The position numbers and the translations under genes were made by a program. From the IMG/VR virus record IMGVR_UViG_3300035135_002626: a DNA stretch of 64,000 nucleotides; one strand, 5' to 3'. Positions 1,234 to 62,235 of this stretch are shown here, in pieces. The notes under the pieces were generated by a model. It was not told where the DNA came from and did not search any database. It saw only the letters and a program-made list of their open reading frames with translations. The first letter of the stretch is position 1, and each line of letters opens with the position of its first letter. Origin of the DNA: a virus.

Positions 1234-3390
1234 ATGTCATTTGCGTTAGCTCACAAACGAAGACAAATTTTTACATACACTGCTATTTTAAACCAAGTCA
1301 CATTTGGCGGAACTGATGACTTGTCAAACACTCTTGACTTTCCAACAGGTGCAACACACAAAGTATACCATAACGATGGTTATGTAGATCCTAACAATTA
1401 TCTTATTTTAAATAACAGTGTAATTTTTAACACTGCACCAAACATTGACAACGGTACACATACAATTAAAATTATTGTACAAACGTTAGAATCGTCAATG
1501 AATGATTATGCATTTAAAATTAAAACAAGTGCAGATGATACTGAAGCATACCTAGTTCAAAACGATCCTAATTACAATCCAACAGATCCTAATACATATT
1601 ACAGTAAAATTAAAATCGAAGATGATTATCTTGTAGCAAAAGATTATGCACACCAAAACTATGCAATTGGTGCAGCAATGGACGCAATTAGTGATAGTAA
1701 ATCATTTGCACAAGCAGAAGTACTGCAAGAAGTTAGCCGTGCTACTAGTGCAGAAAGTGATTTAGATACAAGACTTGCTATACTAGAAGCAGCGGCAAAT
1801 CAAGGCTACGAACTTAACACGTTTACTGCTACACAAGGTCAAACAACATTTACAATGGATTATGATGTTAACATGATTGCAGTGTTCATAAACGGTATTT
1901 TACTTGACGAATCAGACTATACAGCAACTACAGGTACAGAAATTGTACTAGTAGAAGCCTGTGACGCAGGAGACATTGTTAGTATTCCGGAATATTCAAC
2001 AAGTGGTGCAGTACAACAAGCAAATCAAGTAACAACATATTCAGGTGCAAATGCATTGCCAAGCAGTAACAACACAGTAGGAGATTTTGCATTCACTACT
2101 GATACAAAAAGTTTATATATTTGGAATGGTAGTGCGTGGGATAGAGTTTATAATGGTCCAAACCAAACAGTGTCTTGGACTACACAAGCACTTGCAAGTT
2201 ATACACTTGCTACAGATGGGTCAGATACAACTATCACAACACTAGCAAGTGATCCGGAAGGATTTGATATTACATATGGTTATGTAACGTCTCCTAGTAC
2301 ACAAGCACAAGCAACTATTGTAAACAACAACGATGGCACGTTTACACTAACACCAAGCACAGACAGTGCAGACAATGGTACATTTACATTTAGAGCAACA
2401 GCAACAGATGGTGTACATATTATTTCAACAGACTCGACTGTTGAACTTGCACTTACTGGCAGCGGCAGTGGAGGTGGTGGCAGCTGGTATGGCGACAGGG
2501 CAGTAGTAATGGGTGGTTTAACCACCACAGCTATTAATACAATTGAATACTTTGATATTACTACCACCGGTAACTCTGCAGATTTTGGAGATTTATCTGA
2601 GGCTATCTATATAACATCGGCAATGTCAGATAGCACATATGGTGTAAGAACTGGCGGTTTCTCTCCAGCTGATTCTTTAAGACGTAACACAATTGAATAC
2701 ATTACTATTGCAACAGCAGGAAATACTACTGATTTTGGAGATATGACTGTACTAGCATCGCAACATGGCTCGGCTAGCGATGGAACATATGGAATAATGG
2801 CAGGCGGTATAAATGCTACAGGCGTCGGTAATAGTAATAATGATATACAACGAATAACTATTGCAACTCCGAGTAATGCATCTGACTTCGGCGATCTTTC
2901 TAACCAATGGGACGAACTCGCAGGAGTAGCTGATGCAACATACGCTTTGTTTGGCGGCGGACAGTTAAATAGTTCTGTAGTTAATACTATTGAATATGTA
3001 ACAATATCTTCTCCGTCGAATTCAAGTGATTTTGGAGATCTTACTACATCTAGAAGGTTTACAAATAATTCTGCATCTGGGGATACTACTCGTGCGCTGT
3101 TTGGCGGCGGTCAGATTACATTCCCAAACGGAGAAGTGACTATAGATTATGTTACTATTGCTACCCCCGGCAATGCAACTGACTTCGGCGATCTTACATC
3201 GGGTGCCAGAGGTATTTCATCAACTTCTAACGGAACTTACAGTACATTTATTGGCGGATTTAGACCAACTTCTACTAGTAGTAATATAATAGATTATGTT
3301 ACTATACAAACTATCAGCAATGCCAGTGACTTTGGTGATCTGACAGAACCTAAATGGGGAACTTCTGCTACATCAGGGAGCCCTTCATAA
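1234..3390 (+). CDS. modular fibre/adhesin: baseplate-type beta modules, knob, Ig-like spacer, six-repeat Kelch-like head
   Basis: 718 aa with GAGGA SD. N-terminus is paralogous to the 62324 ORF (NDPNYNPTDPNTYYSKIKIE vs NDPAYDPLDTNTYYSDIKIE). Head starts at WYGDR (~2485) and has six 'I(D/E)Y.TI.T..N..DFGDL' repeats. Confidence 0.8.
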   Translation: MSFALAHKRRQIFTYTAILNQVTFGGTDDLSNTLDFPTGATHKVYHNDGYVDPNNYLILNNSVIFNTAPNIDNGTHTIKIIVQTLESSMNDYAFKIKTSADDTEAYLVQNDPNYNPTDPNTYYSKIKIEDDYLVAKDYAHQNYAIGAAMDAISDSKSFAQAEVLQEVSRATSAESDLDTRLAILEAAANQGYELNTFTATQGQTTFTMDYDVNMIAVFINGILLDESDYTATTGTEIVLVEACDAGDIVSIPEYSTSGAVQQANQVTTYSGANALPSSNNTVGDFAFTTDTKSLYIWNGSAWDRVYNGPNQTVSWTTQALASYTLATDGSDTTITTLASDPEGFDITYGYVTSPSTQAQATIVNNNDGTFTLTPSTDSADNGTFTFRATATDGVHIISTDSTVELALTGSGSGGGGSWYGDRAVVMGGLTTTAINTIEYFDITTTGNSADFGDLSEAIYITSAMSDSTYGVRTGGFSPADSLRRNTIEYITIATAGNTTDFGDMTVLASQHGSASDGTYGIMAGGINATGVGNSNNDIQRITIATPSNASDFGDLSNQWDELAGVADATYALFGGGQLNSSVVNTIEYVTISSPSNSSDFGDLTTSRRFTNNSASGDTTRALFGGGQITFPNGEVTIDYVTIATPGNATDFGDLTSGARGISSTSNGTYSTFIGGFRPTSTSSNIIDYVTIQTISNASDFGDLTEPKWGTSATSGSPS

Positions 3391-4709
3391 TGGCAATAAA
3401 CTTTCCAAATAATCCAATAAACGGTGATACACACGTAGTAGACAACATTACATATGTTTACGACGGTCCAAACGGTAAATGGGATATATCAGATCAAAGT
3501 ACAGTTTATGGTAACTTAGCAGACATTAGCCAAGACATCTTACCTAGACTAGATGCACAATACGATTTAGGTTCTAGCGGTCGTCGTTGGAAAGACTTAT
3601 ATTTGTCAGGCACATCAATTGACTTAGGCGGACTAGTATTAACAAATAACAATGGCACACTTAATGTAGACGGTGCTGCAGTTGGGTCCGGTGGAGGCGG
3701 CAGTTCGACACCTGCATTAAATGGTGACGGAACAGTTAACGAACCACCGATGGTGTTAACAGAACCAGCAACAACACACACTCTTAACAGTGATGGTTCT
3801 ACAAGTACTGTTACTATGTTAGCAGAAGACCCAGACGGTGGGTCTATAACTTATGGTATTGCATATAAAAATTCAGGTAATACGAGACCTGCTCAATTAG
3901 CAGCAGATACTACAGTTGATGCCAATGGAGTTTATACATTTACACCGTCGTCAACATCAACTGATGGAGGTTCATTTACTGCCAGATTGTCTGCAACCGA
4001 CGGTGTAAGTGTTATAACCAGATTTGTTGATTTTTCATTAACATTTATTCAAAGTATGTTTGAACCTACAGGAACTACACTATTATTAGGCGTATCATTT
4101 GATAGTGGAGACACTTCAGTAACAGGAACATATACTATTACTGCTCCTGGTGCATTAACGTTCTCGTCAGACGGACAAGGTGTAGCAAATACTGAGTATG
4201 CAACTGGCTGGAGTATAAACACTAATTACTTAACAATCCCTGAATTAGCTGCAGCAGACAGTGGTGCAGATAAAACATATATTGCATGGTATAAAGGAAC
4301 ACAAACATCTGTTGTTACTCCTACAAATTATACTCCAGGTGTTCCGATATTTGGAGATAATAGAAGTTCTACGTGGGTAGGATTTGGAATAGACGGCGGC
4401 AATATTGCTGTAATGGCCGATAATACAGCATACACAGGTACTACTACAGTAACAGATGACACTTGGCATATGTTAGCATGGACTTATTCATCTACAAATA
4501 GTGTTAATGCATTTGTTGACGGAACACAAGAAATAACAAATGCTAATTTAACTGGAGGAGTCGGAAACAATCGAGTTGATCAGATTGGTAACGGATATCC
4601 ATACAGTGGAGTGGCTGCACCAACAGCATTAGACAATATTCAGATATTCAACGGAATACTATCACAATCGGAAATACAAGAAATTTATAATAAAGCTGTA
4701 GGTGCATAA
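3390..4709 (+). CDS. fibre/adhesin with FP N-module, Ig-like spacer and C-terminal LamG/ConA-like domain
   Basis: Start revised from 3354 to ATG 3390 (TAATG overlap; begins MAINFP like its paralogs), giving 439 aa. C-terminus WHMLAWTY..VNAFVDG...QIFNGILSQSEIQEIY is a LamG-like signature. Confidence 0.8.
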   Translation: MAINFPNNPINGDTHVVDNITYVYDGPNGKWDISDQSTVYGNLADISQDILPRLDAQYDLGSSGRRWKDLYLSGTSIDLGGLVLTNNNGTLNVDGAAVGSGGGGSSTPALNGDGTVNEPPMVLTEPATTHTLNSDGSTSTVTMLAEDPDGGSITYGIAYKNSGNTRPAQLAADTTVDANGVYTFTPSSTSTDGGSFTARLSATDGVSVITRFVDFSLTFIQSMFEPTGTTLLLGVSFDSGDTSVTGTYTITAPGALTFSSDGQGVANTEYATGWSINTNYLTIPELAAADSGADKTYIAWYKGTQTSVVTPTNYTPGVPIFGDNRSSTWVGFGIDGGNIAVMADNTAYTGTTTVTDDTWHMLAWTYSSTNSVNAFVDGTQEITNANLTGGVGNNRVDQIGNGYPYSGVAAPTALDNIQIFNGILSQSEIQEIYNKAVGA

Positions 4710-4763: not shown

Positions 4764-7187
4764 ATGGCTATTGAATTTCCAGCAAACCCATCAGACTCTG
4801 ATTCCTTTGTTGCAAACAATGTGACATACATTTACGATGGCACATTAGGTGTTTGGAACATCTATTCAGGTACTACATACAACGGCGGCTTCGGCGGCAG
4901 CGGCGGAGCAAGTGTTACAATTGGTGACAGTGCACCTACTAGTCCAAGCAACGGCGATATGTGGTGGGAATCAGATGTTGGTAGATTAAAAATTTACTAT
5001 GACGACGGCGACACAGCACAGTGGGTTGATGCTACACCAACTAGTAACACAGTAGGCGGATCAAACAGTGTAATTGCTCCTACGGCAATTGGTATTATTA
5101 ATGGTACAAGTGGAACAGGAACTGGACTGTCATGGGGTAATTGGGATGCAGTTGCCGGAACATTAGATATTACATTTGATAATGCACAACCAGATGCAAA
5201 CTACGCAGTTGTCTCAGACGGTGAATTTCAAGACGACGGTCGTCATGTTTCTGTACAAAATAAAACTACTACTGGATTTGAAATTAGTTTATATGACGGC
5301 AGCGGAAATGTAAATACGCCAAGTGCGTTAAACTTGTTTACTATTATTGTTTATGCGTCAACTCCTACACAGTTAGTACAAACAAATCCGTACAGTGATG
5401 GAAACGTTGACTCACACTTAAATGTAAGTGGTGCTACAACAGGCGAAGTATTAAGTTGGACAGGCACAGATTATGATTGGGTTACAGCCGCAAGTGGTGG
5501 TGCTAGTGTTACTACTAGCGATACAGCACCAAGTAATCCGAGCGAAGGTGACTTGTGGTATGATACAACTGAACTAACAACTTATGTATATTACAATGAC
5601 GGTGATAGCAGTCAATGGGTAAACGCTAGTCCAAATGGAATGAGTGCAAGTCTTAATATTTCAGACACTGCGCCAACAAACCCAAGTGATGGTGATTTAT
5701 GGTTTGACAGTACTACACTAAAAACATTTGTTTATTATAATGATGGAAGCAGTAGTCAATGGGTAACACTTGTTCCAACCGCAGGCGGAACTGGTGGCGG
5801 AGTAACAACTTATGCTGACACAGCAACACTGGTTCAAGAATCACCTGACGCAGGTTCATTGGGATATGTAACAGCAAACAATAACTTATATCTATATAAC
5901 GGATCTGGTTGGAGTAAAGTAGATACTACTAATAGTGCACCAGTCATTAACAGTGTACAGGATGCAAGTGCAAACACAACTCCATTTAGTTTTGCAACAG
6001 ATGGCACACCTACAGTAATTACAGTTGATGCTACAGACCCTGAAGGCTTTCCGTTGACTTATAGTTATAGTGTAACTAGCGGATCACTTGGAACAACTGC
6101 AACAGTTACACAAGGAACAGGTGCACAATCAAATGAATTTACACTTACACCAGGAACAAACGATCCTGCAGATGTTGGTACATTTGAATTAACATTTAGT
6201 GTAACAGACGGAGTTGAAACTTCTACTAGTGTTGCTGATTTTTCATTAGCGTTTTTTACGCCCTGGTATGGTGATAGGGGATTATTACAATATCAACAAA
6301 ACGCTACTCCTTATACTGAATATGCCGCCGTTGTTGATATTACTACAAATAGTAATGCTACGTATTGGGGAGACTTAACAGTACATGGTAACTATACATC
6401 GGCTGCAAGCGATGCTACAATTGGTGTTTGGAACGGAGCCGGCCTACAAGGTCCTATGAGTTATATGACTTTTGCTACTCAAGGTAATAGCGTATCATTT
6501 GGCGATGGTAACACGTTTGGTAATGTAAACTCAGCACATAACATGCAAAGTAATGGTACATACGGAATGATTATGGGTGGTTATCAATCAAATGCAACCC
6601 CACAAGACGGTATTCCACAAGGCTATGTCGAAGTTATTCAGCGTTTTACATTTGCCCAGACTTCAACTAGACCCACCGATCATGGTAATTTGCGTCTTGG
6701 AGGCACTTTTTATGCCGGTGGTGGGATATCAAGTGCTACTAAATCATTTATTTTAGGCGGTAGTACAGACACTATTAATTATGTTCAAGCCATTGATACA
6801 GTATCTTTTGCAACTCCGAGTAATTCTACTCAATTTGGTAATATGAGCGTAGGTGCAATTTGGGCTGCTGGTTTAAGTGATGAAACACGTGGAGTTTATG
6901 CATTAGGATATACAGGTGGTCATAATAATATAATTGAATATGTAACAATGGATACTCCTAGTAATGCTACAGATTTTGGAGATCTTCAACACACTAAACG
7001 AGCAGTTGGTGCAACAAATAATGCAACAAGAGGTATATTCTGGGGCGGTTATAGCGGATCGGTTTGGTATAACAATATCGACGTAATTACCATTCAAACT
7101 ACAGGTAATGCTAGTAACTTTGGATCTATGCCAATTGCAGGATTTTCAGGAATGTATGAAAGACAAGGTTGCTCAGGAAATGCATAA
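4764..7187 (+). CDS. fibre/adhesin: FP module, three GDLW knobs, small beta domain, Ig-like spacer, Kelch-like head
   Basis: 807 aa. Knobs PTSPSNGDMW, PSNPSEGDLW and PTNPSDGDLW; ITFDNAQPDANYAV..NKTTTGFEI segment (H-lectin/gp53-like by eye); DGTPTVIT..DPE spacer; WYGDRG head. Confidence 0.8.
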   Translation: MAIEFPANPSDSDSFVANNVTYIYDGTLGVWNIYSGTTYNGGFGGSGGASVTIGDSAPTSPSNGDMWWESDVGRLKIYYDDGDTAQWVDATPTSNTVGGSNSVIAPTAIGIINGTSGTGTGLSWGNWDAVAGTLDITFDNAQPDANYAVVSDGEFQDDGRHVSVQNKTTTGFEISLYDGSGNVNTPSALNLFTIIVYASTPTQLVQTNPYSDGNVDSHLNVSGATTGEVLSWTGTDYDWVTAASGGASVTTSDTAPSNPSEGDLWYDTTELTTYVYYNDGDSSQWVNASPNGMSASLNISDTAPTNPSDGDLWFDSTTLKTFVYYNDGSSSQWVTLVPTAGGTGGGVTTYADTATLVQESPDAGSLGYVTANNNLYLYNGSGWSKVDTTNSAPVINSVQDASANTTPFSFATDGTPTVITVDATDPEGFPLTYSYSVTSGSLGTTATVTQGTGAQSNEFTLTPGTNDPADVGTFELTFSVTDGVETSTSVADFSLAFFTPWYGDRGLLQYQQNATPYTEYAAVVDITTNSNATYWGDLTVHGNYTSAASDATIGVWNGAGLQGPMSYMTFATQGNSVSFGDGNTFGNVNSAHNMQSNGTYGMIMGGYQSNATPQDGIPQGYVEVIQRFTFAQTSTRPTDHGNLRLGGTFYAGGGISSATKSFILGGSTDTINYVQAIDTVSFATPSNSTQFGNMSVGAIWAAGLSDETRGVYALGYTGGHNNIIEYVTMDTPSNATDFGDLQHTKRAVGATNNATRGIFWGGYSGSVWYNNIDVITIQTTGNASNFGSMPIAGFSGMYERQGCSGNA

Positions 7188-7197: not shown

Positions 7198-8700
7198 ATG
7201 GCACAGAATTTTCCAAACAGTCCAACAAACGGTGACACAACAGTAATAAACGGTATTACATATACTTACGTTAGTGCTTCTAGTAAATGGAGAGCAACAC
7301 AAGTTGGCGGCAGTGGAGCAAGTAGTGGCGGCGCAGGTGTGACAACTTATGCTGATACAGCAACAATGGTTACAGCGGCGCCGGATGCAGGCTCATTGGG
7401 ATACGTAACTGCTAACGAAAATTTGTATATTTACAATGGATCCGGATGGAGTAAAGTAGATACTACTAACCTTTCTCCGGTTATTAATAGTGTACAAGAC
7501 GCAAGTGCAAACACATCTCCATTTAATTTAGCAACTGACGGAACACCTACTGTGATTACTGTTAGTGCAACTGATCCAGAAGGCTTTCCGTTAACATATA
7601 CATATGGTGTAACTAGCGGATCACTTGGTACTACAGCAACAGTTACACAAGGAACTGCACCAAACACAAATGAATTTACAATTACACCTGGCACAAATGA
7701 TCCTGCAGATGCTGGTTCGTTTGAACTAACATTTACTGTAGACGATGGTGTTACTACAGCGGCAACTTCAGTAGCCGATTTTACTTTATCATTTGTTACT
7801 GCACATAATAACGTAACAGCATTTGCTTCTGGTGGTGTTACAAACGTAGGTGTTTCAGATACTATTGACTATTGGTCTACATCACTTTCTGGAACTCAAG
7901 CAACAGTATTTGGAAATATGGCAACAGCATCGTATCGTCAAGGCGCACTTGCAGATGGTCCTGGAGGAAGAGGATGTATATTTGCTGGAGGGTGGAGTCC
8001 AATGGTCGATACTATTCAATATATTACTGTTGCCACTCCTGGTAATGCACAATCGTTTGGAACTATTTCCAGTGGTACAAGAACTATAGCAGGTGGATGT
8101 AGTGATTATACTTATGGTGTAATATTAGCAGGTAATCAAGGCGGTAGTGGTGGCACTCAGACTGATTTAAAAGTTATGGATAGATTTACAGTACAGACAC
8201 TAGGTAATACTACAGATCACGGAGATTTAGTAAACGATCATAATGCATCAATGTCAGCAACTTCACCTGCAGGATCTTCAAGAGGTGTAGTCACAGGTGG
8301 TTTTAGTTCTACTACTATGGAATACTTTGATATTTCAACTCCTGGCAATGCGGCAGTATTTGGTAATACTACAGGTGATGCAATGGGTCATTGTGCTGGT
8401 ATGTCAGATGATACTTATGCAGTATTTGGACCAGATGACGATGGAAACGACAATGCTTTAGAATATATTACTGTAGACACGCTCGGTAATGCACAATCGT
8501 TTGGCACAATATCACAGGCACGTTATTATTGTGCAGGAACTGATAATTTGACATACGGATTTTTAGTCGGCGGAGAAAAAAGTGGTGTTAATAGTTTTAT
8601 TCATGTAACAGAAGTAGTTACAATTGCAACTCCAGGTAATGCATCTAATTTTAATACTTTATCAATCGGAAGACAAGCCGCAAGTGCAGCCGCCGCATAG
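7198..8700 (+). CDS. fibre/adhesin: FP module, knob, Ig-like spacer, divergent Kelch-like head
   Basis: 500 aa. Stalk is nearly identical in protein to that of the 4764 ORF. Head keeps 'YITV.T.GNA..FG' repeats but lacks the GDR start. Ends at TAG. Confidence 0.8.
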   Translation: MAQNFPNSPTNGDTTVINGITYTYVSASSKWRATQVGGSGASSGGAGVTTYADTATMVTAAPDAGSLGYVTANENLYIYNGSGWSKVDTTNLSPVINSVQDASANTSPFNLATDGTPTVITVSATDPEGFPLTYTYGVTSGSLGTTATVTQGTAPNTNEFTITPGTNDPADAGSFELTFTVDDGVTTAATSVADFTLSFVTAHNNVTAFASGGVTNVGVSDTIDYWSTSLSGTQATVFGNMATASYRQGALADGPGGRGCIFAGGWSPMVDTIQYITVATPGNAQSFGTISSGTRTIAGGCSDYTYGVILAGNQGGSGGTQTDLKVMDRFTVQTLGNTTDHGDLVNDHNASMSATSPAGSSRGVVTGGFSSTTMEYFDISTPGNAAVFGNTTGDAMGHCAGMSDDTYAVFGPDDDGNDNALEYITVDTLGNAQSFGTISQARYYCAGTDNLTYGFLVGGEKSGVNSFIHVTEVVTIATPGNASNFNTLSIGRQAASAAAA

Positions 8701-8715: not shown

Positions 8716-10203
8716 ATGGCAGTAAACTTTCCAGATAGTCCAACAAATGGCGACACAACAGTAATAAATGGCGCAACATATACCTGGGATGGTGTTAAAT
8801 GGGACACAACTAGTTTTGCTAGTAATGTTACAGCAACATATGATAGTCCGCTAAACTTACCAACTACAGGATTAACAAACGGTGATGTTGCTTGGGTTGG
8901 TGGAAGTACTAACAAATTATATATTAGTAACGGTACAGGATGGCTTAGTGCAACACTAACAAATAGTGCACCTGTTATTAATAGCGTACAAGACGCAAGC
9001 GCAGGTACAACTCCATTTAGTTTAGCAACTGACGGAACACCTACAGTAATTACCGTTGACGCAACTGATCCTGAGAGTTTTGGATTAACATATACGTATA
9101 GTGTAACCAGCGGAGCACTAGGCACTACAGCAACAGTAAGCCAAGCAGATAATGTGTTTACAATTACTCCTAGTACAAGCGAAGCAAACGCTGGTACATT
9201 TGGGTTAACATTTAGTGTATACGATGGGGTTAATACAGTTACAAGTGTTGCTGATTTTAGTCTTGCATTTACTGCAATGTATGGTGACAGGGGATTATTT
9301 GCAGGTGGTAATTCACCATCAGCAAGTAACGCAGTTGAGTATATAGACATTACAACAGCAAGTGATGCGGCTACGTTTGGTACATTAAGTACAGGAATTT
9401 CGCATGGCGGCACAGCATCAAATGGCACAATAGGCATATTTTATGGAATAAATGCAAATTCAACTGCATCTCACCGAGATTATTTTACTATACCTAGTAA
9501 CCCTGGTGCTGTGACAGCATCCGAAGCTGGTGCTCTTTCAACTGGTCGTAAAGAACCCGGAAGTGCAGGAGACGGAACATATGGTACGTTTGCAGGTAGT
9601 GTGCCAACTAGTAGTAATAGTAATACCACATTAAGTTCAATTGAATATATAACTATAGCAACAACATCTGCAGGTGCAACTTTTGCTAATCTATCAGCAA
9701 CAACTGGTAGTTTAGCAGGAGCAAGTGACGGAACAAATGCTTATTATTTCGGTGGATATAATTATCAACTTACAAGTAATTGGGACAACAATAGAATAGA
9801 AACATTAGTTATTGCTACACAAGGGCAACAGTCTAGTTTTGGTAACTTAGCAAGTGACAGATATAATCACAGTGCAGCAGGTAACGAAACGTACGGTGTT
9901 ATTGCTGGTGGTGGACCTGATGGTACACAAACTCCAAACTCAACTATAGAGAGAATTGCTTATGCAACACAGACAACTGCTACTAGTTTTGGTAGTTTAA
10001 ATGGCGGCGGGCGATGGAAAAACGGTAGTCTTAATAACGATACATATGCAATTTTTGCAGGGGGCTATACACTAGGACCTGATACTTATTATGGAACAAT
10101 GAATGTTGTGACAATAGATAGCGCAGGAGGATCTTCTGCATTTGGTAATTTAGGTACAAATAGAGGTGACGGTGTTAGAGGTCTATCGGGAAGTCCAGCA
10201 TAA
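8716..10203 (+). CDS. fibre/adhesin: FP module, knob, Ig-like spacer, Kelch-like head
   Basis: 495 aa with AGGA SD; MAVNFPDSPTNGD start; MYGDRG head ending SGSPA. Confidence 0.8.
   Translation: MAVNFPDSPTNGDTTVINGATYTWDGVKWDTTSFASNVTATYDSPLNLPTTGLTNGDVAWVGGSTNKLYISNGTGWLSATLTNSAPVINSVQDASAGTTPFSLATDGTPTVITVDATDPESFGLTYTYSVTSGALGTTATVSQADNVFTITPSTSEANAGTFGLTFSVYDGVNTVTSVADFSLAFTAMYGDRGLFAGGNSPSASNAVEYIDITTASDAATFGTLSTGISHGGTASNGTIGIFYGINANSTASHRDYFTIPSNPGAVTASEAGALSTGRKEPGSAGDGTYGTFAGSVPTSSNSNTTLSSIEYITIATTSAGATFANLSATTGSLAGASDGTNAYYFGGYNYQLTSNWDNNRIETLVIATQGQQSSFGNLASDRYNHSAAGNETYGVIAGGGPDGTQTPNSTIERIAYATQTTATSFGSLNGGGRWKNGSLNNDTYAIFAGGYTLGPDTYYGTMNVVTIDSAGGSSAFGNLGTNRGDGVRGLSGSPA
9172..9219 (+). 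repeat. 48-nt repeat with one mismatch shared between adjacent adhesin stalks (second copy 12024-12071)
   Basis: AGTACAAGCGAAGCAAACGC(T/C)GGTACATTTGGGTTAACATTTAGTGTA, in the Ig-like spacer just upstream of the variable head. Confidence 0.8.
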
Positions 10204-14052: not shown

Positions 14053-16176
14053 ATGGCAATTGGTTTCCCTGCAATCTCAGCCGGTACACTTTCTTTAAAC
14101 GGTAACATCAATGGTAACTTTGAAGTATCATCTACAGTTGGCTGGCTGTATGGTGCTGCAGTAAGTCCTGATGGTACTAAACTTTTTGCAATGGATCGTC
14201 GAGCGCCTGGAGGTGCTGGAGCAGGAACGCAAAAGACAGGCAAAGTTCACCAGTTTACGGCACCTGCAGGATGGTACACTACATTTAATGTTAATCCAAC
14301 CTATGACAATGTATCATTGAATTGGACCGGACAGACAAGTTATACTAGAGGACTACGATTTAATACATCTGGAAATCGTTTATATATTTTAGGTGAAAAT
14401 GATGATGTATATCAATACAATTTAGGAACTGCATGGAGCCTGTCGGGTGCATCATATAGTAATAATAGTATTACTCTTACTACAGTTGCCAGCGATGTAA
14501 ACAGTATTTTGTTTAATAATAACGGAACCAAAATGTATGCGCTCGACGGGAGTAGTAACACGATATATCAGTATACTTTGAGTACTCCAGATGATATAAG
14601 TACTGCTACATATGACGGTTCTTCATCAGACTACGTTATACCAGGGGCCAGTTTCCCGGTGGATTTTAATTTCAATTCAGATGGAACTAAACTGTATATA
14701 CAAATCGGTAGTTATTTACATCGTTATAGCCTTTCAGTTGCATATGATACCTCAACAGCAACAGCAGATAACACTAGTGCAAGTTTTAGTAGTTTTTATG
14801 TTGGAAATGGTCATCCTAGTGGTGCAACATCATTAGGTGGGAACCCTACTGGATTTATATTTAATCATGACAGATCACATATTTTTCATTTGCACGGTGT
14901 ATATAATAGTACATACGGCGAGTATGTTTCTGGGTTTGTGCCATATGCAGTCACTGAAGTAGACGGTGTAGGTGACGGTTCTACATTTACATTCAACAAC
15001 AGAGATTATATATATGATGGCACTAAAGAAGCATGGGAAGTAAATTCACCGATTACAGTTGCACAAACTGGGTCACCTGTTTCAGATCTTAGTGAACTAG
15101 CAGACAGTACGAGTATTTTAGATGATCCTGCAAACACAGTCTTAACATACGCAAACTTAGATGAAATTTTAGCAGTAACAAATCCTGCAACCGGACAACT
15201 TGCATTTAACTTAGATACATCGGATATGTATATATTTGGTGGTACAAACTGGCAAAAAGTTTATGATGAAGATGATTTACCGCCTCCGGTTGTTTGGTAC
15301 GGCGACAGAGGTGTAATATCACTAGGAGATAGAAGTAATACAAAATTAAATACACTAGAATATGTTGACATAACAACAACTGGTAATTCCACTTCGTTTG
15401 GTACTTTAACTGTTGGTCAAGAAAACGGCACAAGTACAGCAGGTGGTGATAGAATGGTTATTTCTCTTGGAATGACTGCTACTACTCCTGCCACTAAAAT
15501 GGAATATGTTACAACTTCTAGTCCAGGAACAGCAACTAGTTTTGGAGATTTATCAGATTCTAGACGTGCCCAAGGTGGTGTTTCAAACGGATCAAGAGGA
15601 TGTTTTGGTGGCGGTCCGAGTACAATGCAAATTGATTATATTACAATTGCAACCGAAAGTAATGCAACTGCATTCGGAACACATTCAAGTGGATTAGGAC
15701 AAGCATGGGGATCGAGTGGTGCTGAAGATGGCACTTATGGATTGTTTATGGGAATAGATGACTCTCCGGGTGCAGATGGTCCTATTGATTATATTACAAT
15801 TGCAACAGAGAGCAATGCAACACTATTTGGTCAACTAACAAGTAATAGAACTTATGGTTGTGCAGTATCTGATTCGACTAAAGCTGTCCATTGCGGTGGC
15901 GCAGGCTATGTTACAGATATGCATTATGTAAATATTGCAACACCTGGTAATTCTACTAGTTTTGGATCTTTGTCACTTGGAAGATCATATCCGGCTGGCA
16001 CATCAAACAATAGCAGAGGTATTATATCTGGTGGATATCACACTGGTAGTAACAGCAATTACACTAACAGTATTGAGTACATTGATATAGCAACTATAAG
16101 CAGTGCAAGTAGTTTTGGTACAATATCTAGTGGTGCACATTCAAATGGTTGTGCAAGTTCAGGGAATGCAGCATAA
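14053..16176 (+). CDS. adhesin with an extra beta-propeller inserted in its N-terminal FP module, short stalk, Kelch-like head
   Basis: 707 aa. MAIGFP is followed by ~298 aa of 'xGTKxYx..YxYxLSxAxxxSTAxY' repeats, then GDGSTFTFNNRDYIYDGTKEAW resumes the module. WYGDRG head. Confidence 0.8.
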   Translation: MAIGFPAISAGTLSLNGNINGNFEVSSTVGWLYGAAVSPDGTKLFAMDRRAPGGAGAGTQKTGKVHQFTAPAGWYTTFNVNPTYDNVSLNWTGQTSYTRGLRFNTSGNRLYILGENDDVYQYNLGTAWSLSGASYSNNSITLTTVASDVNSILFNNNGTKMYALDGSSNTIYQYTLSTPDDISTATYDGSSSDYVIPGASFPVDFNFNSDGTKLYIQIGSYLHRYSLSVAYDTSTATADNTSASFSSFYVGNGHPSGATSLGGNPTGFIFNHDRSHIFHLHGVYNSTYGEYVSGFVPYAVTEVDGVGDGSTFTFNNRDYIYDGTKEAWEVNSPITVAQTGSPVSDLSELADSTSILDDPANTVLTYANLDEILAVTNPATGQLAFNLDTSDMYIFGGTNWQKVYDEDDLPPPVVWYGDRGVISLGDRSNTKLNTLEYVDITTTGNSTSFGTLTVGQENGTSTAGGDRMVISLGMTATTPATKMEYVTTSSPGTATSFGDLSDSRRAQGGVSNGSRGCFGGGPSTMQIDYITIATESNATAFGTHSSGLGQAWGSSGAEDGTYGLFMGIDDSPGADGPIDYITIATESNATLFGQLTSNRTYGCAVSDSTKAVHCGGAGYVTDMHYVNIATPGNSTSFGSLSLGRSYPAGTSNNSRGIISGGYHTGSNSNYTNSIEYIDIATISSASSFGTISSGAHSNGCASSGNAA

Positions 16177-50905: not shown

Positions 50906-50912
50906 ATAAATA
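50906..50912 (+). promoter_or_regulatory. T4-like late promoter box ATAAATA
   Basis: Intergenic, 24 nt before ATG 50937; GGAG SD follows. Confidence 0.65.
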
Positions 50913-50936
50913 CTTTTAATAAAACGGAGAGCAAGC

Positions 50937-51122
50937 ATGGCATTTAATTTTCCAGCAAACCCATCAAATGGTGATACATACAGTTTAAACGGTATTACAT
51001 ATGTATATCGTACTTCTACCGGTGCGTGGGAGGTTGCAACAAATATTAATACCACAGAATTAGATGCAGACCTTGCATCAAAAAAATTAGCAGTAGCATA
51101 TGCAATTGCACTTGGAGGATAA
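50937..51122 (+). CDS. 61-aa mini-protein: FP module plus hydrophobic C-terminal helix
   Basis: MAFNFPANPSNGDTYSLNGITYVYRTSTGAWEV...LASKKLAVAYAIALGG*. Confidence 0.8.
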   Translation: MAFNFPANPSNGDTYSLNGITYVYRTSTGAWEVATNINTTELDADLASKKLAVAYAIALGG

Positions 51123-57084: not shown

Positions 57085-59721
57085 GTGCCAATTACCTTTC
57101 CGTCGAACCCGAGCAATGCTGATGAATACACCTTTAACGGAAGAACCTACACATACAATGCTTCAAGAGGCGTATGGTTAGGTTCTAGAGGTAGTTCAGT
57201 CAGCGCCGGGGGCGGGGGAGGAGCAGCACTTACTGTTTCGGACACTGCACCTACTAGTGCAAATGAAGGTGACTTATGGTTTCACAGTACATTACTAGAA
57301 ACTTATGTATACTACAATTCACAGTGGGTATTATCTAATCCATCAGGCAGTGGTGGCGGTGGTGGTGGCGGAGGTGGAACTACAACATATGCCACTGCAG
57401 CAGAACTTCCACAAACTGCAACAAATGGTGATTTAGCACTAGTTGAAGAAACAGATAAACTATATATTTGGAACGACACTGCTTGGTATAATATTGCACT
57501 TATTAACACAGCACCTAGTATTACACAAGGTGGCGCTGGTAGTTACAACTTAGCAATAGATGGCACACCTACAGTAATTACATTAACAGCAACTGATCCA
57601 GAAAGTGTTCCGGTAACATGGAGTTATGCTGTGACCAGTGGATCGCTAACTAACGGAGGTGGCACAACTGCAACAGTAACACAAGCAGATAACGTATTCA
57701 CAATTACTCCTACTACAACAGAAGCATATGCTGGTGAATTTACGTTAACATTTAGTGTAACAGACGGTGCAAACATTGTAAATGATGTAAATTCATTTAG
57801 TTTAGATTTTGTAACAATAGTAGAAAATTCTAAATATACGACTTCACTTATTACAACCAGTACTACTGCACAAAATAATGGTATTAATGACTTAACCGAT
57901 TTAACAAGTACTTACACATTTACCGGTGATCCATCTGGTTTTAGTAATTGGTCGCCATTTAAATCTGGCGGATATAGTACATACTTTGATGGAACAGGAG
58001 ATTATATACATACTGACCTTGGTGTAAATGGTGGCCCAGATGGTGATTTCACCATTGAGTTTTGGGCATATACTACCAATGGGACCACAAATAGTGGATG
58101 GTTTCATATGTCTGACACTGCAGGTGGATTTAATAGTTCTGCTGCGGCTCTTGCTTTAGGTAAAACAGCTACCAACAAATTTTATTATGGCAATGGCTCA
58201 GGTGATGCAAGCACATACACTGGTAATAATGTTTGGCAACACTGGGCAATGGTTAGAAGTGGAAGTACAATAACTCTTTATAGAGATGGTATTTCAATTG
58301 ATACTCAAACAAATGCAACTGATCATTCATCATATCGGTATTTAGCAGTTGGTGGTTATTATAGCACTGCTTATTTAACTACTGGTTATATTAGTGATTT
58401 TAGATATGTAAAAGGAACTGCTTTATATACAGCAAACTTTACACCACCAACTGAACGACTAACTGCAGTTGCAAATACAGTATTACTAACATGTGCATCT
58501 AATACATTTAAAGATGATTCAACTAATACACATACCATTACAACTGCAGGTAACCCTAAAATATCAGGGTTCATACCGTATGATTACAGTGAATACAATA
58601 AAGATGATAACATTGGTTCATATTATCAAAACGGATCAAACAATTTCACAACTACTGCTATTATACCTTCTAGTAATTATACAATAGAAGGGTGGGTATA
58701 TGTCAATGGCACAAATGACAGCGGAACTCTAATGGCTGTCCATGCTCTGTCTGGTGGTAGATCTTGGCTGCTATTTGCAAGAAGCGACTATATTGGCATG
58801 GCAGTGTCGGGACAGACTGACGTAGGCCTGGCAGGTAATTATTTAAATCGCTGGACACACTTTGCATGGACGTGGGATGGCACAACTCAAAAAATGTATA
58901 TCAATGGCGTGATGAGTGCAAGTGCCGCTGTTTCATCATTTGCTGGATCTTCGTCGCCTTTATCATTTGGTTTTAACTTGGATAATGCACCTAGTAATTG
59001 GTACTACCAAGGGTATGCTACTAATATAAGATTTAGTAATATAATTCGATATACCACCGACTTTGATCCACTAACAGAATCTAAAAAGTTTACATCTGAT
59101 GCGAATACAGTGTTGTTAGTTGATCCATCCGAAGACCAATCAATTATAGACAAGTCGATGCAAGAAACTGTAGTTTCGTTAGGTGGAAATACTACATCAT
59201 CAACAACACAGACAAAGTATTCAAGCTCTAGCATTTATTTTGACGGATCAGGCGATTATATATCAAAATCCAGTTCTTCTTTACTTTCAATGGGAAGCGA
59301 AGACTATACAGTAGAACTTTGGGCGTATTTCAATTCTCTTCCAACAACTTCTAACGGTTGGCATATGATATTTGCTGCAAGAGATGGATCTGATAACGGA
59401 ATAGCATTTTATGTAGACGGTCCAACGCCGCACGTTGAAATCTACACTAATACACTAGTTGCGTCAGGAGCAACAACACTTTCAACAGGTCAATGGTATC
59501 ATTTAGCATATGTAAGAACCAACGGTACTGCAAAGGTTTTTATAAATGGAACAGAAGAATTAAGTTACTCTTATACAACTTCTGTAGGTGACGCTACACT
59601 ATTGATTGCTGGCTTTACATCTCAATTCGCAAATATGTATATAGAAGATTTCAGAATTACAAAAGGCTTAGCCAGATACACCACAAACTTTACACCGCCG
59701 ACAGGATCATTAGAGGGATAA
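57085..59721 (+). CDS. adhesin with FP module, knobs, Ig-like spacer and three LamG/ConA-like domains
   Basis: 878 aa; GTG start with AGGAG SD. Three 'F/YT(I/V)ExWxY...WxHxAxxRxG...xxNG...DFR' blocks. Confidence 0.8.
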   Translation: MPITFPSNPSNADEYTFNGRTYTYNASRGVWLGSRGSSVSAGGGGGAALTVSDTAPTSANEGDLWFHSTLLETYVYYNSQWVLSNPSGSGGGGGGGGGTTTYATAAELPQTATNGDLALVEETDKLYIWNDTAWYNIALINTAPSITQGGAGSYNLAIDGTPTVITLTATDPESVPVTWSYAVTSGSLTNGGGTTATVTQADNVFTITPTTTEAYAGEFTLTFSVTDGANIVNDVNSFSLDFVTIVENSKYTTSLITTSTTAQNNGINDLTDLTSTYTFTGDPSGFSNWSPFKSGGYSTYFDGTGDYIHTDLGVNGGPDGDFTIEFWAYTTNGTTNSGWFHMSDTAGGFNSSAAALALGKTATNKFYYGNGSGDASTYTGNNVWQHWAMVRSGSTITLYRDGISIDTQTNATDHSSYRYLAVGGYYSTAYLTTGYISDFRYVKGTALYTANFTPPTERLTAVANTVLLTCASNTFKDDSTNTHTITTAGNPKISGFIPYDYSEYNKDDNIGSYYQNGSNNFTTTAIIPSSNYTIEGWVYVNGTNDSGTLMAVHALSGGRSWLLFARSDYIGMAVSGQTDVGLAGNYLNRWTHFAWTWDGTTQKMYINGVMSASAAVSSFAGSSSPLSFGFNLDNAPSNWYYQGYATNIRFSNIIRYTTDFDPLTESKKFTSDANTVLLVDPSEDQSIIDKSMQETVVSLGGNTTSSTTQTKYSSSSIYFDGSGDYISKSSSSLLSMGSEDYTVELWAYFNSLPTTSNGWHMIFAARDGSDNGIAFYVDGPTPHVEIYTNTLVASGATTLSTGQWYHLAYVRTNGTAKVFINGTEELSYSYTTSVGDATLLIAGFTSQFANMYIEDFRITKGLARYTTNFTPPTGSLEG

Positions 59722-59724: not shown

Positions 59725-62235
59725 ATGGCAGTAACTTTTCCAACAAGCCCAACTAACGGACAAACATTTACAGCAAATGGACTATCATATGTTTATAATG
59801 CAACATATGGTGTTTGGAGATTAAATGTTTCTACAGGCAGTAGTGGCGGTACCGGTGGCGGTGTTACTACATATGCAACAGTTGCTGAACTTCCACTAAC
59901 AGGTAACAGCAACGGCGATATGGCATTTGTTGAAGAAACTGACAGACTATATTTGTCAAATGATAACGGTTGGTTTAACATTGCACTTATTAACACAAGC
60001 CCAACAATTACACAAGGTGGCGCTGGTAGTTATGCACTAGCAGCAGATGGTACACCTACAGTAATTACGCTAACAGCAACTGACCCAGAAGAAGTACCAC
60101 TTACTTGGAGTTATAGTGTAACCAGCGGAGCACTTGGTACTACAGCAACCGTAACACAAGCAGATAATGTGTTTACTATAACACCTGGAACAGATGCAGC
60201 AAACGATGCAGGAACTTTCGAAATAACATTTAGCGTAACAGATGGAACAAATATTGTAAGTGACGTTAATTCCTTTAGTTTAGTGTTTAGTACTTTAGTA
60301 CAAAATTCAAATTACACAATAGCGTTAATAACAACAGATGGATCAACGGGTAATAATACCACATTTGTAGATAGTTCAACAAATGGGGCTACAATAACAG
60401 CATCTGGCAATCCAAAATTAACTACATATAGTCCTTATAGAGATGGTGGTTACAGTGTTAAAATTGATGCTACTGCCGGTAGTTGGATATACGCTAATTC
60501 ACATTCAGATTTTAATTTTGGTACAGGTGATTTTACTGTAGAATTTTGGATGAAAAGTCAAAAGTCAGACCAATGGCTTTTATTGATAGACCAACAATAC
60601 CAAGCACAGGGTATTTCTATTTGGGTTAATCCTACTAACCAATTAATATATTATCCAAATAGTAGCACACCTGCGTTAACATCTCAGGCATTACCAATGA
60701 CTGATTGGATACACGTTGCTTTAGTTCGTTCTAGTGGAACAACAAAGTTTTATGTTAATGGTGTTTGGAATTCAACAAGTTATTCAGATAGTCAAAATTT
60801 CAATACTAATTTGCCTTTCAAGATGGGATCCGATTATAGTCCAGCAAGTTATGGGTACCTAGGTTTTTTTAGAGATGTACGAGTTACAGATACAGCAGTT
60901 TATTCTGCTGATTTTACTCCTCCAACAGAACCATTAACAGAAATTTCTGGAACAAAACTTCTTACATGTCAAAGTTCAAATTTCAAAGATGTGTCTACTA
61001 CTCCTCACACAATAACTGTAGTCGGATCTCCATCTATAGTACCATATGGACCATATGATTATGATGCTTTTGATCCTCAGTTACATGGCGGCTCTGTTTA
61101 TTTTGATGGTAGTAACTATTTACAAGCTCCGTATCACTCTTCGTTTGATTATAATTCTTCTACACCATTTACTATTGATATGTGGTTCTATCCTCTTGTG
61201 TCGAGTACAGACGCACAGCATATCGCCTCATCAAACACAAGTGGTGTCGACGCAGGTCTAAACTGGTTATTTAGACAAAAAGCAGACAATACACTTAGGT
61301 TTGTAATGATTGACGGTTCTGGCACAGTAGTTACATGTGATTCTACATACGAAATGAAAATAAATGCGTGGAATCACGTAGCCGTAATTATGACAGGTTC
61401 ATCAATAAGACATTGGTTAAATGGTACTTGGCAACAAGAGGTATCTTTTTCTGGAACACAGCAGGTAAATGGTAATATTGATATTGGTAGATGGGGATCA
61501 ACATATTATAATGGTTATGTTTCAGACTTTAGATATAATGTTGGTGAGGAGTTATATACTGGTGTTAATCAATTTAGTGTTCCAATTCCAACAGAACCGT
61601 TAAGTAGTACAAATTCAGAGTTACATATTAAAGGTACTAGTGCAAATATTATTGATAAATCACAGTCAACTATTATTGCTGTTAATAGTGGCTATGCTGA
61701 CGACGGTTCGTATGGAGGTGTTGGGCCTAAATATGCTGGAACTTCAATTTATAATACATCTAACAATTCACTAACAGGAATATCATTTACTTTGCCTGTA
61801 GCATTAGATACTGATGATTTTACTATCGAAGGATGGTTGCGATGGATAACAAATGGGTCGTGGGATGGTTGTTTCTTTCAAATAGGCGATCATACACAAA
61901 GTTCAGGACTTATTTTAAATTTACATAATCCTAATCCTGTAATTAGATTTGGCAGTAGCAATACTTATGTAGATAACACTACAACTCTTACATCTAATCA
62001 GTGGTATCATATAGCAGTAACAAGAGAAAGCGGTGTTTGTAAAATTTGGTTAGACGGGCAATTAGAAGGCTCACGATCAACACCTGAGAATATAACTGCA
62101 ACAACAGGTTATATATTATCTGCAACTTATAATAATTCAGGCATAGTTGGGCATGTAGAAGATTTCAGAATTACAAAAGGCCTTGCTAGATACACTGCTA
62201 ACTTCACACCACCGACAGCATCACTTGATGGATAA
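59725..62235 (+). CDS. adhesin with FP module, knob, Ig-like spacer and three LamG/ConA-like domains
   Basis: 836 aa; tandem paralog of the 57085 ORF. Both end EDFRITKGLARYTxNFTPPTxSLxG. Confidence 0.8.
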   Translation: MAVTFPTSPTNGQTFTANGLSYVYNATYGVWRLNVSTGSSGGTGGGVTTYATVAELPLTGNSNGDMAFVEETDRLYLSNDNGWFNIALINTSPTITQGGAGSYALAADGTPTVITLTATDPEEVPLTWSYSVTSGALGTTATVTQADNVFTITPGTDAANDAGTFEITFSVTDGTNIVSDVNSFSLVFSTLVQNSNYTIALITTDGSTGNNTTFVDSSTNGATITASGNPKLTTYSPYRDGGYSVKIDATAGSWIYANSHSDFNFGTGDFTVEFWMKSQKSDQWLLLIDQQYQAQGISIWVNPTNQLIYYPNSSTPALTSQALPMTDWIHVALVRSSGTTKFYVNGVWNSTSYSDSQNFNTNLPFKMGSDYSPASYGYLGFFRDVRVTDTAVYSADFTPPTEPLTEISGTKLLTCQSSNFKDVSTTPHTITVVGSPSIVPYGPYDYDAFDPQLHGGSVYFDGSNYLQAPYHSSFDYNSSTPFTIDMWFYPLVSSTDAQHIASSNTSGVDAGLNWLFRQKADNTLRFVMIDGSGTVVTCDSTYEMKINAWNHVAVIMTGSSIRHWLNGTWQQEVSFSGTQQVNGNIDIGRWGSTYYNGYVSDFRYNVGEELYTGVNQFSVPIPTEPLSSTNSELHIKGTSANIIDKSQSTIIAVNSGYADDGSYGGVGPKYAGTSIYNTSNNSLTGISFTLPVALDTDDFTIEGWLRWITNGSWDGCFFQIGDHTQSSGLILNLHNPNPVIRFGSSNTYVDNTTTLTSNQWYHIAVTRESGVCKIWLDGQLEGSRSTPENITATTGYILSATYNNSGIVGHVEDFRITKGLARYTANFTPPTASLDG

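What the first reader, a model, noticed from the sequence alone, without database searches (positions are those of the whole stretch)
3390..62235. Fifteen different proteins share one N-terminal module: candidate docking tag for a branched multi-adhesin apparatus
Seen: ORFs at 3390, 4764, 7198, 8716, 14053 (split), 16176, 17480, 19600, 20844, 23055, 28033, 31313, 50937, 57085 and 59725 all begin with M-x(2-3)-F-(P/S)-xx-P-xx-(GD/variant)...(T/S)Y-x-Y...G-x-W. Downstream they carry unrelated cargo (Kelch-like heads, LamG, cupredoxin, Ig, or only a helix). Known: branched receptor-binding systems (CBA120, K64-1) attach several tailspikes through short N-terminal docking domains. Inference: this module may be a common attachment tag that loads ~15 adhesins on one virion, possibly on the repeated knobs of the 5807-aa protein, in cellulosome-like scaffold logic.
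Basis: partly seen in the sequence, partly recalled or inferred. Interest (0 to 1): 0.8.

Follow-up and report, generated by a model that had tools for sequence, protein, structure and literature searches.

The report
Shared N-terminal trimer node on phage fibres
Fourteen tail-fibre-like genes of an uncultured marine T4-like phage, plus one split copy, begin with the same 35-residue unit, which most likely clamps three chains together at the virion end of each fibre; a shared docking role is not shown.

Summary
Fourteen + strand ORFs begin with one 35-aa module, and ORF 14053 carries it split by a ~300-aa propeller. Each copy still scores 35-58 bits when left out of the profile, and nothing else in six frames matches.

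The module is not private to this phage. The profile finds 4,818 protein clusters, and 143 of the best 148 start with it. Cultured cyanomyophages carry several copies (S-H34 10, P-SSM2 4, S-CREM2 3). Two of the three S-CREM2 proteins were detected in virions. No Pfam or NCBIfam model covers it.

Its best structural matches are a 34-residue phiKZ capsid chain and the 39-aa D4 subdomain of CBA120 tailspike 3. D4 is a three-stranded sheet that forms a beta-prism II homotrimer. The same motif also recurs inside the 5807-aa fibre (14x), ORF 4764 (2x) and ORF 57085.

My reading: it is the N-terminal copy of a general trimer-node building block, with cargo swapped behind it. A shared docking role is possible but unproven. 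Docking on the giant protein's knobs has no support. The one complex prediction gave no answer.

Only first-reader notes on this same window exist in the scan, none on other DNA.

The parts
3390..3494 (+). N-terminal module of the 439-aa ORF (LamG cargo)
   Evidence: HMM 67.1 bits; 58.4 bits when left out
4764..4868 (+). N-terminal module of the 807-aa ORF
   Evidence: 60.6 bits; 50.6 left out; AF2 model with alignment, pLDDT 85-87, strands 14-17, 20-25, 30-33
7198..7302 (+). N-terminal module of the 500-aa ORF
   Evidence: 59.6 bits; 46.1 left out
8716..8814 (+). N-terminal module of the 495-aa ORF (two residues shorter)
   Evidence: 50.9 bits; 35.7 left out
14053..14076 (+). First half (MAIGFPAI) of the split module in the 707-aa ORF
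   Evidence: Matches profile positions 1-7; conserved in homologs at 99, 77 and 63% identity
14077..14973 (+). Lactonase/SGL-type beta-propeller inserted inside the module
   Evidence: Homologs carry PF08450 and PF10282
14974..15048 (+). Second half (GD..Y.Y..W sheet) of the split module
   Evidence: 23.0 bits, profile positions 11-35; same score in homologs P0280-83 and P0288-92
16176..16280 (+). N-terminal module, NKKQ subclass, 429-aa ORF
   Evidence: 53.3 bits; 35.0 left out
17480..17590 (+). N-terminal module, WRSRRRF subclass, 404-aa ORF
   Evidence: 49.6 bits; 35.8 left out
19600..19704 (+). N-terminal module, NKKQ subclass, 414-aa ORF
   Evidence: 57.0 bits; 45.0 left out
20844..20951 (+). 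N-terminal module, WRSRRRF subclass, 420-aa ORF
   Evidence: 50.7 bits; 38.1 left out
23055..23159 (+). N-terminal module of the 545-aa ORF (followed by a YDLGS..RFRDLY motif and a cupredoxin-like region)
   Evidence: 62.5 bits; 54.9 left out
28033..28131 (+). N-terminal module of the 531-aa ORF
   Evidence: 62.2 bits; 55.2 left out; phrog_17970 positions 1-37, E 6e-8
31313..31417 (+). N-terminal module of the 679-aa ORF (He_PIG Ig at the C-terminus)
   Evidence: 57.5 bits; 46.3 left out
50937..51122 (+). 61-aa ORF: module (residues 1-35) plus a C-terminal hydrophobic helix ending ...AVAYAIALGG
   Evidence: 65.4 bits; AF2 gives a three-stranded sheet plus helix 39-54; conserved in L005 and L086
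57085..57186 (+). N-terminal module of the 878-aa ORF (GTG start, LamG cargo)
   Evidence: 56.1 bits; 48.3 left out
59725..59832 (+). N-terminal module of the 836-aa ORF (LamG cargo)
   Evidence: 57.9 bits; 45.9 left out
4917..5045 (+). Internal copy of the related motif (..TAPxxPxxGD.W..Y.YY..QW.) in ORF 4764
   Evidence: AF2 strands 66-69, 74-80, 85-89 at pLDDT 87-88
5655..5783 (+). Second internal copy in ORF 4764
57232..57360 (+). Internal copy in ORF 57085
34868..48994 (+). Span of the 5807-aa ORF that holds 14 internal copies of the related motif (Gly of the GD pair at residues 501, 849, 1275, 1323, 1648, 2283, 2880, 3199, 3647, 4111, 4159, 4467, 4522, 5167)
   Evidence: Regex list; alignment A3; profile-profile match to the N-terminal module at 93% / E 2.8e-7 and 80% / E 1.5e-5

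Best explanation
The module is the N-terminal edition of a small, widespread fibre building block of about 35 residues: a Pro-rich arm (F-P-x-N-P-x-N-G-D) followed by a three-stranded antiparallel sheet carrying Y..Y and W. In trimeric phage fibres and tailspikes three such sheets pack around the three-fold axis as a beta-prism II-like node. Here 14 fibre genes start directly with that node, with no leader. It would register and clamp the three chains at the N-terminal end and give every fibre the same compact trimeric knob. By analogy with T4 gp12, gp34 and fibritin, that end should be the virion-proximal one. Behind the node, usually after a Gly-rich linker and often a second node, come interchangeable stalks and heads. 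Shown: the paralogy, the wide distribution, the almost exclusive N-terminal position, the kinship with the internal motif, the predicted fold and its best solved matches, and virion presence in a cultured relative. Inferred: that the module trimerises here, that this end faces the virion, and whether the knob is also what sits in a socket.
For: 1. Paralogy is robust.
2. The profile finds 4,818 clusters at E<=1e-3 among 1.84 billion representatives. Of the best 148, 143 start with the module, and a few carry internal tandem copies.
3. A profile-profile match links it to the internal motif: 93% / E 2.8e-7 and 80% / E 1.5e-5. That motif recurs 14x in the giant fibre and also in ORFs 4764 and 57085, so the unit works inside fibre shafts, where it cannot be a terminal tag.
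4. AF2 gives strands 14-17, 20-25 and 30-33, both from a single sequence and from an alignment (pLDDT 85-87). The internal motif gets the same topology.
5. Fold searches by two programs put the same two chains on top. One is phiKZ 8y6v_I (rmsd 1.2-1.4 A over 32-33 residues, 24-34% identity). The other is CBA120 TSP3 residues 589-623 (rmsd 1.1-1.8 A over 33-35 residues, 29-33% identity).
6. PMC6517402 describes that TSP3 region (D4) as a three-stranded sheet forming a beta-prism II trimer, with a core lined by Asn, Trp and Pro. The pairwise alignment puts module N4, P6, N8, P9 and W31 on identical TSP3 residues.
7. The second motif also matches collagen XV/XVIII trimerisation domains at Z 4.7-5.2.
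8. The M-A at the start aligns with the T-A that opens the internal motif and TSP3 D4. So the exact N-terminal placement follows from genes starting at a domain boundary.
9. S-CREM2 ORF114 and ORF127 carry the module and are in the virion proteome.
Against: All structural Z-scores are low (3.2-5.2), as expected for 33 residues but below the tool's trust level, and Foldseek E-values are 0.08-2. The sequence link to the TSP3 D4 family is weak: hhalign 24%, E 8e-4, and pairwise z from 0.2 to 6.4. No homotrimer was predicted or measured here. F5, N4, T14, T21 and G29 are conserved only in the N-terminal edition. They hint at an extra function, such as capping or a partner interface. The 61-aa protein has no cargo at all, which is odd for a mere folding nucleus. 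TSP3 D4 sits at the distal C-terminal end, so its position gives no guide to attachment.
Confidence: 0.55

Rival explanations
1. Common docking tag. The module, as a trimeric knob or through its N-terminal arm, plugs into one class of socket on the baseplate or on another fibre, so that many different adhesins load on one virion in a branched apparatus. In the narrower version the sockets are the knobs of the 5807-aa protein.
For: The position is almost always N-terminal, and T4-type fibres attach by that end (fibritin: PMC3797505). Some residues are conserved only in the N-terminal edition: F5, N4, T14, T21, G29. The cargo-less 61-aa protein keeps the module at high conservation in L005 and L086. 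The split copy keeps both halves down to 63% identity. Cargo is swapped behind a constant module in close relatives. Module proteins are in S-CREM2 virions. ATAAATA boxes lie 50 nt or less upstream of 11 genes, six of them module genes, which suggests co-directional late expression.
Against: No socket was found. The phrog_677 regions are cupredoxin-like, with no match to T4 gp10. The giant protein contains the same motif 14 times instead of an evident receptor for it. The conserved 1980-aa neighbour occurs in relatives that show no module within about 10 kb on either side of the gene (L087). Three charge-distinct subclasses (NGD, NKKQ, WRSRRRF) argue against one uniform socket. Occupancy of 14-15 fibre types on one particle is untested.
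Confidence: 0.25
2. In-trans adaptor. The 61-aa protein (module plus C-terminal helix) binds the N-terminus of the conserved 1980-aa structural protein and lends it the shared N-terminal knob. This would be like a joint protein between fibre segments.
For: The gene just upstream of the ~1900-aa protein always ends in ..AIA[YM][AS]IALG, whatever its length or N-terminus: 61 aa in the window, L005 and L086; 87 aa in L087; 482 aa in L088. The 61-aa stop codon sits inside a GGAGGA Shine-Dalgarno-like site for the next gene, 6 nt before its ATG.
Against: The complex prediction gave a score of 0.00, which the tool rates as no answer and which therefore carries no weight either way. None of 120 homologs of the 1980-aa protein has the module fused, so there is no Rosetta-stone support. 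The tail could equally bind something else.
Confidence: 0.2
3. Recombination handle. The conserved 5' ends exist mainly as DNA homology that lets cargo cassettes be exchanged between paralogs.
For: Hybrid genes exist. P0025 in L005 has the N-terminus of ORF 57085 and a body like ORF 59725. In L093 the counterpart of ORF 3390 is 137 aa instead of 439, and that of ORF 7198 is 844 aa instead of 500.
Against: Median nucleotide identity between modules is 53%, and the longest exact run is 23 nt, in one pair only. Amino-acid positions are conserved across thousands of clusters, which points to selection on the protein.
Confidence: 0.05

Closest known systems
D4 subdomain of CBA120 tailspike protein 3 (PDB 5w6f / 6nw9; PMC6517402)
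   Same: About 35-39 residues with a Pro-rich arm and a three-stranded antiparallel sheet. It is one of the two best solved matches by both aligners (rmsd 1.1-1.8 A, 29-33% identity). Both share N-x-P-A-N-P ... G ... G-x-W in the same register. In TSP3, three copies form a beta-prism II trimer.
   Different: D4 is at the C-terminal, distal end of a tailspike; here the unit is the very first residues. The profile-level sequence link is weak (24%, E 8e-4). The N-terminal edition has F where D4 has R, and has its own conserved T14, T21 and G29.
Internal 'TAPxxPxxGDLW...YVYY...QWV' fibre motif (phrog_9729, phrog_3304 and phrog_9627 regions)
   Same: Profile-profile match at 80-93%; same predicted three-stranded topology; found in the same proteins and the same phage.
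   Different: It is internal and repeated. It has W after the GD pair and a longer second hairpin. It lacks the invariant F5.
Branched receptor-binding complexes (CBA120 TSP1-4; Klebsiella phages with dual RBPs)
   Same: Several receptor-binding proteins in one genome, with a short shared N-terminal part and variable cargo.
   Different: Those systems dock on T4 gp10-like domains of a primary RBP (PMC8825819 abstract; own knowledge for the Klebsiella phages). No such domain could be shown here. No interaction is shown either.
Conserved ~50-aa N-terminal attachment domain of T4 fibritin (PMC3797505)
   Same: A short conserved N-terminal domain of a trimeric T4-type fibre, with a variable distal end.
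   Different: There is no sequence relation: T4 has no match to the module at E<=1. Fibritin is a single gene, not 14 paralogs.
Small trimerisation units: T4 foldon and the collagen XV/XVIII trimerisation domain
   Same: Tiny beta-structured trimerising units. The foldon shares the P-x-x-P-x-x-G-[DQ]-x-Y spacing. The collagen domains are the top Z hits for the second motif (Z 4.7-5.2).
   Different: The foldon match is only 5 bits. The collagen matches have rmsd 4.0-4.3 A and 8-13% identity. These are analogy only.

Membership tests
Beta-prism II trimerisation subdomain of the TSP3-D4 type | A ~35-residue three-stranded antiparallel sheet preceded by a Pro-rich arm | tested here: met
   AF2 models: strands 14-17, 20-25, 30-33; pLDDT 75-87 over the module
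Beta-prism II trimerisation subdomain of the TSP3-D4 type | Superposes on the solved D4 subdomain | tested here: inconclusive
   rmsd 1.1-1.8 A over 33-35 residues at 29-33% identity, among the top matches of two programs. But Z is 3.2-4.2 and Foldseek E is 1.4-2.3, too small a domain for significance
Beta-prism II trimerisation subdomain of the TSP3-D4 type | Sequence homology to the D4 family | tested here: inconclusive
   hhalign 24% probability, E 8e-4, consistent register; pairwise z 0.2-6.4
Beta-prism II trimerisation subdomain of the TSP3-D4 type | Forms a homotrimer around a three-fold axis | not tested
CBA120-type branched RBP system | A T4 gp10-like branching domain on a primary RBP | tested here: not met
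   phrog_677 regions of ORFs 23055 and 28033 and of the giant protein give no T4 gp10 hit in the PDB. They resemble blue-copper domains instead
CBA120-type branched RBP system | Physical binding of secondary RBP N-termini to the primary RBP | not testable with these tools
   The only complex prediction (61-aa x 1980-aa N-terminus) returned no answer
T4 fibritin foldon | Sequence match to the 27-aa foldon | tested here: not met
   5.0 bits on the isolated foldon and -1.2 bits in full-length wac
T4 fibritin N-terminal attachment domain | Homology to the wac N-terminus | tested here: not met
   No match in the T4 genome at E<=1; no wac N-terminal hit
Curated domain families (Pfam-A, NCBIfam) | A model covering residues 1-35 | tested here: not met
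   No hit over the module in Pfam or NCBIfam. Only whole-protein PHROGs start with it: phrog_17970, 3449, 3420, 33894

The most novel reading that the evidence does not exclude
The module is a universal trimeric plug. A whole class of marine T4-like phages would use one 35-residue N-terminal knob to load many interchangeable adhesins (10-15 per genome) onto a common class of sockets. A 61-aa 'tag plus tail' protein would supply the same plug in trans to a conserved ~1900-aa structural protein. That would be a cellulosome-like plug-and-socket logic for host-range breadth.
Probability: 0.2. Interest if true: 0.75.

Novelty: new variant of a known kind. Interest (0 to 1): 0.5.

Why it matters
The module defines a large domain family without a curated model: 4,818 clusters at 50% identity and no Pfam or NCBIfam entry. 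It marks the first residues of fibre and adhesin genes in abundant marine myophages, including cultured cyanophages. An HMM for it would give a cheap way to find and count receptor-binding genes in marine viromes and to place their N-termini correctly.

If it is a compact trimer node, it is a natural alternative to the foldon for trimerising fusion proteins. If it also docks, cultured phages such as S-H34 (10 copies) offer a tractable system to study how one virion carries many adhesins.

Tried and rejected
1. Complex prediction of the 61-aa protein (x3) with residues 1-220 of the 1980-aa protein (x3) scored 0.00 with low pLDDT. The tool rates this as no answer, so it is not evidence either way.
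2. Stop-codon readthrough fusing the 61-aa and 1980-aa ORFs was rejected. They are in the same frame, but the stop is TAA and relative L005 has a second in-frame TAA.
3. Rosetta-stone test: none of 120 homologs of the 1980-aa protein carries the module.
4. The phrog_677 regions were examined as possible T4 gp10-like docking platforms. No T4 gp10 match was found; they look cupredoxin-like.
5. Foldon homology gave only 5 bits.
6. PDB sequence searches with three profiles (module, internal motif, both together) found nothing significant. ORF 4764 residues 1-400 gave no hit.
7. Megablast of the first 20 kb against phages gave no match.
8. Relatives were fetched through the 310-aa ORF 13089, giving 80 IMG/VR loci. 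Almost none has the module, so that gene is a conserved neighbour of other fibre arrays and not a marker for the module.
10. The identity of phiKZ chain 8y6v_I could not be settled from the paper. It may be gp184.
11. No whole genome is held for this window, so a search for a co-occurring socket gene was not possible.

Full report
**Setting.** The window is a one-strand array of tightly packed structural genes, with GC 36-47%. It has no near-identical match among 50,697 phage records. Its proteins hit tail-fibre, baseplate and virion-structural PHROGs, and their best tblastn matches are cyanomyophages of the Kyanoviridae. A metagenomic relative that shares the 1980-aa protein at 73% identity continues into T4 gp13 and gp14 neck genes. 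So this is an uncultured marine T4-like myophage. ATAAATA, the core of the T4-type late promoter (own knowledge), is depleted overall: 15 copies against 26 expected. Yet 12 of its 13 + strand copies lie 50 nt or less upstream of gene starts, in front of 11 genes, six of them module genes. That fits co-expressed late genes.

**Observation.** Fourteen align over about 35 residues with M1, F5, P9 and W31 invariant and P6 and Y24 nearly so.
- A local HMM gives 50-67 bits for each. Nothing else in six frames exceeds 6.4 bits except ORF 14053.
- Left out of the model, each copy still scores 35-58 bits and ranks in the top 14 of 1,178 segments.
- ORF 14053 has the module split. MAIGFPAI is followed by a lactonase/SGL-type propeller of about 300 residues, then by the GD..Y.Y..W half at 23 bits.
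- Both halves persist in homologs at 99, 77 and 63% identity.
- Conservation is at the protein level: median amino-acid identity is 38%, median nucleotide identity is 53%, and the longest shared DNA run is 23 nt.
- There are three subclasses: NGD-type (10 copies), NKKQ-type (16176, 19600) and WRSRRRF-type (17480, 20844).

**Distribution.** The 36-position profile finds 4,818 clusters at E<=1e-3 and 134 at E<=1e-10 among 1.84 billion representatives. Of the best 148, 143 have it within the first six residues, and a few long proteins hold internal tandem copies.
- No Pfam or NCBIfam model covers it. Several PHROGs begin with it: phrog_17970, 3449, 3420 and 33894.
- Cultured cyanomyophages carry several copies: S-H34 has 10, six of them on consecutive genes; P-SSM2 has 4; S-CREM2 has 3.
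- T4, Syn9, S-PM2 and HTVC008M have none at E<=1.
- In S-CREM2 the module-bearing ORF114 (7 peptides) and ORF127 (1 peptide) are in the virion proteome (PMC10665884).

**What the module is.** The same proteins hold an internal motif of the form ..TAPxxPxxGD.W....Y.YY....QW.. It occurs 14 times in the 5807-aa fibre, twice in ORF 4764 and once in ORF 57085.
- Profile-profile comparison links this motif to the N-terminal module at 93% / E 2.8e-7 and at 80% / E 1.5e-5 with the tool's alignments.
- The M-A that opens the module aligns with the T-A that opens the internal motif. These genes therefore simply start at a domain boundary.
- AF2 predicts a Pro-rich arm and three strands (14-17, 20-25, 30-33), both from one sequence and from a 22-row alignment (pLDDT 85-87). 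The internal motif gets the same topology.

**Fold matches.** Fold searches by VIA-align and by Foldseek put the same two chains on top.
- One is a 34-residue chain of the phiKZ capsid (8y6v_I): rmsd 1.2-1.4 A over 32-33 residues at 24-34% identity.
- The other is residues 589-623 of CBA120 tailspike 3: rmsd 1.1-1.8 A over 33-35 residues at 29-33% identity.
- The TSP3 paper describes that region (D4) as a three-stranded sheet, three of which form a beta-prism II trimer whose core is lined by Asn, Trp and Pro (PMC6517402).
- The pairwise alignment puts module N4, P6, N8, P9 and W31 on identical TSP3 residues.
- The statistical support is modest. Z is 3.2-5.2, hhalign against the D4 family gives 24% / E 8e-4, and pairwise z ranges from 0.2 to 6.4.
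- The second motif also resembles the collagen XV/XVIII trimerisation domains (Z 4.7-5.2). The resemblance to the T4 foldon is only a pattern, at 5 bits.

**Mechanism.** I read the module as the N-terminal copy of a general trimer node. It clamps and registers three chains at the N-terminal end, which by analogy with T4 fibres should face the virion. It presents a uniform knob, and cargo is exchanged behind it. Exchange is visible in relatives. In L093 the counterpart of ORF 3390 is 137 aa instead of 439, and that of ORF 7198 is 844 aa instead of 500. P0025 joins the N-terminus of ORF 57085 to a body like ORF 59725. That the unit also occurs inside shafts, and at the distal end of TSP3, shows it does not need a partner protein to have a role.

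**Docking.** A shared socket remains possible.
- For it: some residues are conserved only in the N-terminal edition (F5, N4, T14, T21, G29), a cargo-less 61-aa protein keeps the module, and the split copy keeps both halves.
- Against it: no socket was found. The phrog_677 regions of ORFs 23055 and 28033 and of the giant protein look cupredoxin-like and give no T4 gp10 match.
- The giant protein carries the node itself.
- The conserved 1980-aa protein also occurs in a relative (L087) that shows no module within about 10 kb on either side of the gene.

**The 61-aa protein.** The gene directly upstream of the ~1900-aa protein always ends in ..AIA[YM][AS]IALG, whether it is 61, 87 or 482 aa long and whatever its N-terminus. 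It is translationally coupled to the next gene. This suggests a joint between the two proteins. The complex prediction gave no answer, and no fused homolog exists among 120.

**Other N-terminal tags.** The window and its relatives hold further shared N-termini.
- MS.NRKL..LA..ID.. occurs on the giant protein and on four paralogs in L008.
- An F.YTA..Q.TF.G.D type occurs on ORFs 590, 1234 and 62324.
- A MAK.AF.V..G..PGHTT type occurs in L086 and L087.
- Propeller-bearing homologs of ORF 14053 use many different N-termini.

Exchangeable N-terminal units are thus a general habit of these phages.

**Verdict.** I class it as a new variant of a known kind, namely a small trimerising or anchor unit shared by fibre paralogs. 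It has a previously uncurated family of thousands of clusters and an unusual copy number of 14-15 in one array.

Noticed in passing
window 50937-51122 and 51129-57071; L005, L086, L087, L088: The gene just upstream of the conserved ~1900-aa virion protein always ends in a hydrophobic tail ..AIA[YM][AS]IALG. Its length (61, 87 or 482 aa) and its N-terminal type vary. Its stop codon lies in a GGAGGA site for the next gene.
   Followed up: partly
window 14053-16176: A lactonase/SGL-type beta-propeller (PF08450-like) is inserted between the FP arm and the GD..W sheet of the module. The split is conserved in homologs down to 63% identity.
   Followed up: yes
window 13089-14021; L006-L085: The 310-aa acidic-tailed ORF has more than 125 IMG/VR relatives (59-84% identity). 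They usually sit between a fibre array and a terminase-like or other morphogenesis gene. It had no tblastn match among cultured phages at E<=1e-5, and its function is unknown (phrog_1409).
   Followed up: partly
window 33404 (giant ORF N-terminus); L008 813-9954: A second shared N-terminal tag (M..[SN]RK.ANLG..[IL]DSG...) heads the 5807-aa protein and four consecutive fibre paralogs in relative L008. A third type (F.YTA..Q.TF.G.D) heads ORFs 590, 1234 and 62324.
   Followed up: no
window 590-1207 and 33404-50827 (C-termini): The 205-aa ORF and the 5807-aa ORF end in the same ~45-residue C-terminal sequence (..N.ITV.RNG.NI.GV......N.NRA...LVY..A..GWVL..K).
   Followed up: no
window 3390, 10203, 16176, 20844: Four gene junctions overlap by one base (..TAATG..), so the stop of one fibre gene shares its last A with the next start. 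This suggests translational coupling within cassettes.
   Followed up: no
window, 13 + strand ATAAATA sites (e.g. 4734, 19572, 23026, 28002, 31277, 33364, 50906): ATAAATA is depleted overall (15 against 26 expected), but 12 of the 13 + strand copies lie 50 nt or less upstream of gene starts. They look like T4-type late promoters that split the array into about 11 units.
   Followed up: partly
L005 868-1215 versus window 50828-50936: Relative L005 has a 115-aa Phage_tail_APC (tail assembly chaperone) gene between the giant fibre and the 61-aa gene. The window has only 110 nt there.
   Followed up: no
window 23055-24692, 28033-29628, 35900-37100: Regions annotated through phrog_677 as 'baseplate wedge tail fiber connector' resemble blue-copper (cupredoxin) domains: weak pseudoazurin, amicyanin and plastocyanin hits, and Atlas clusters named blue copper domain.
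   Followed up: partly
PDB 8y6v chain I (phiKZ capsid, residues 69-102): The best structural match of the module is a 34-residue beta fragment in the phiKZ capsid model. I could not establish its protein identity (possibly gp184) or its oligomeric state. It may show the fold used in a heterologous complex.
   Followed up: partly
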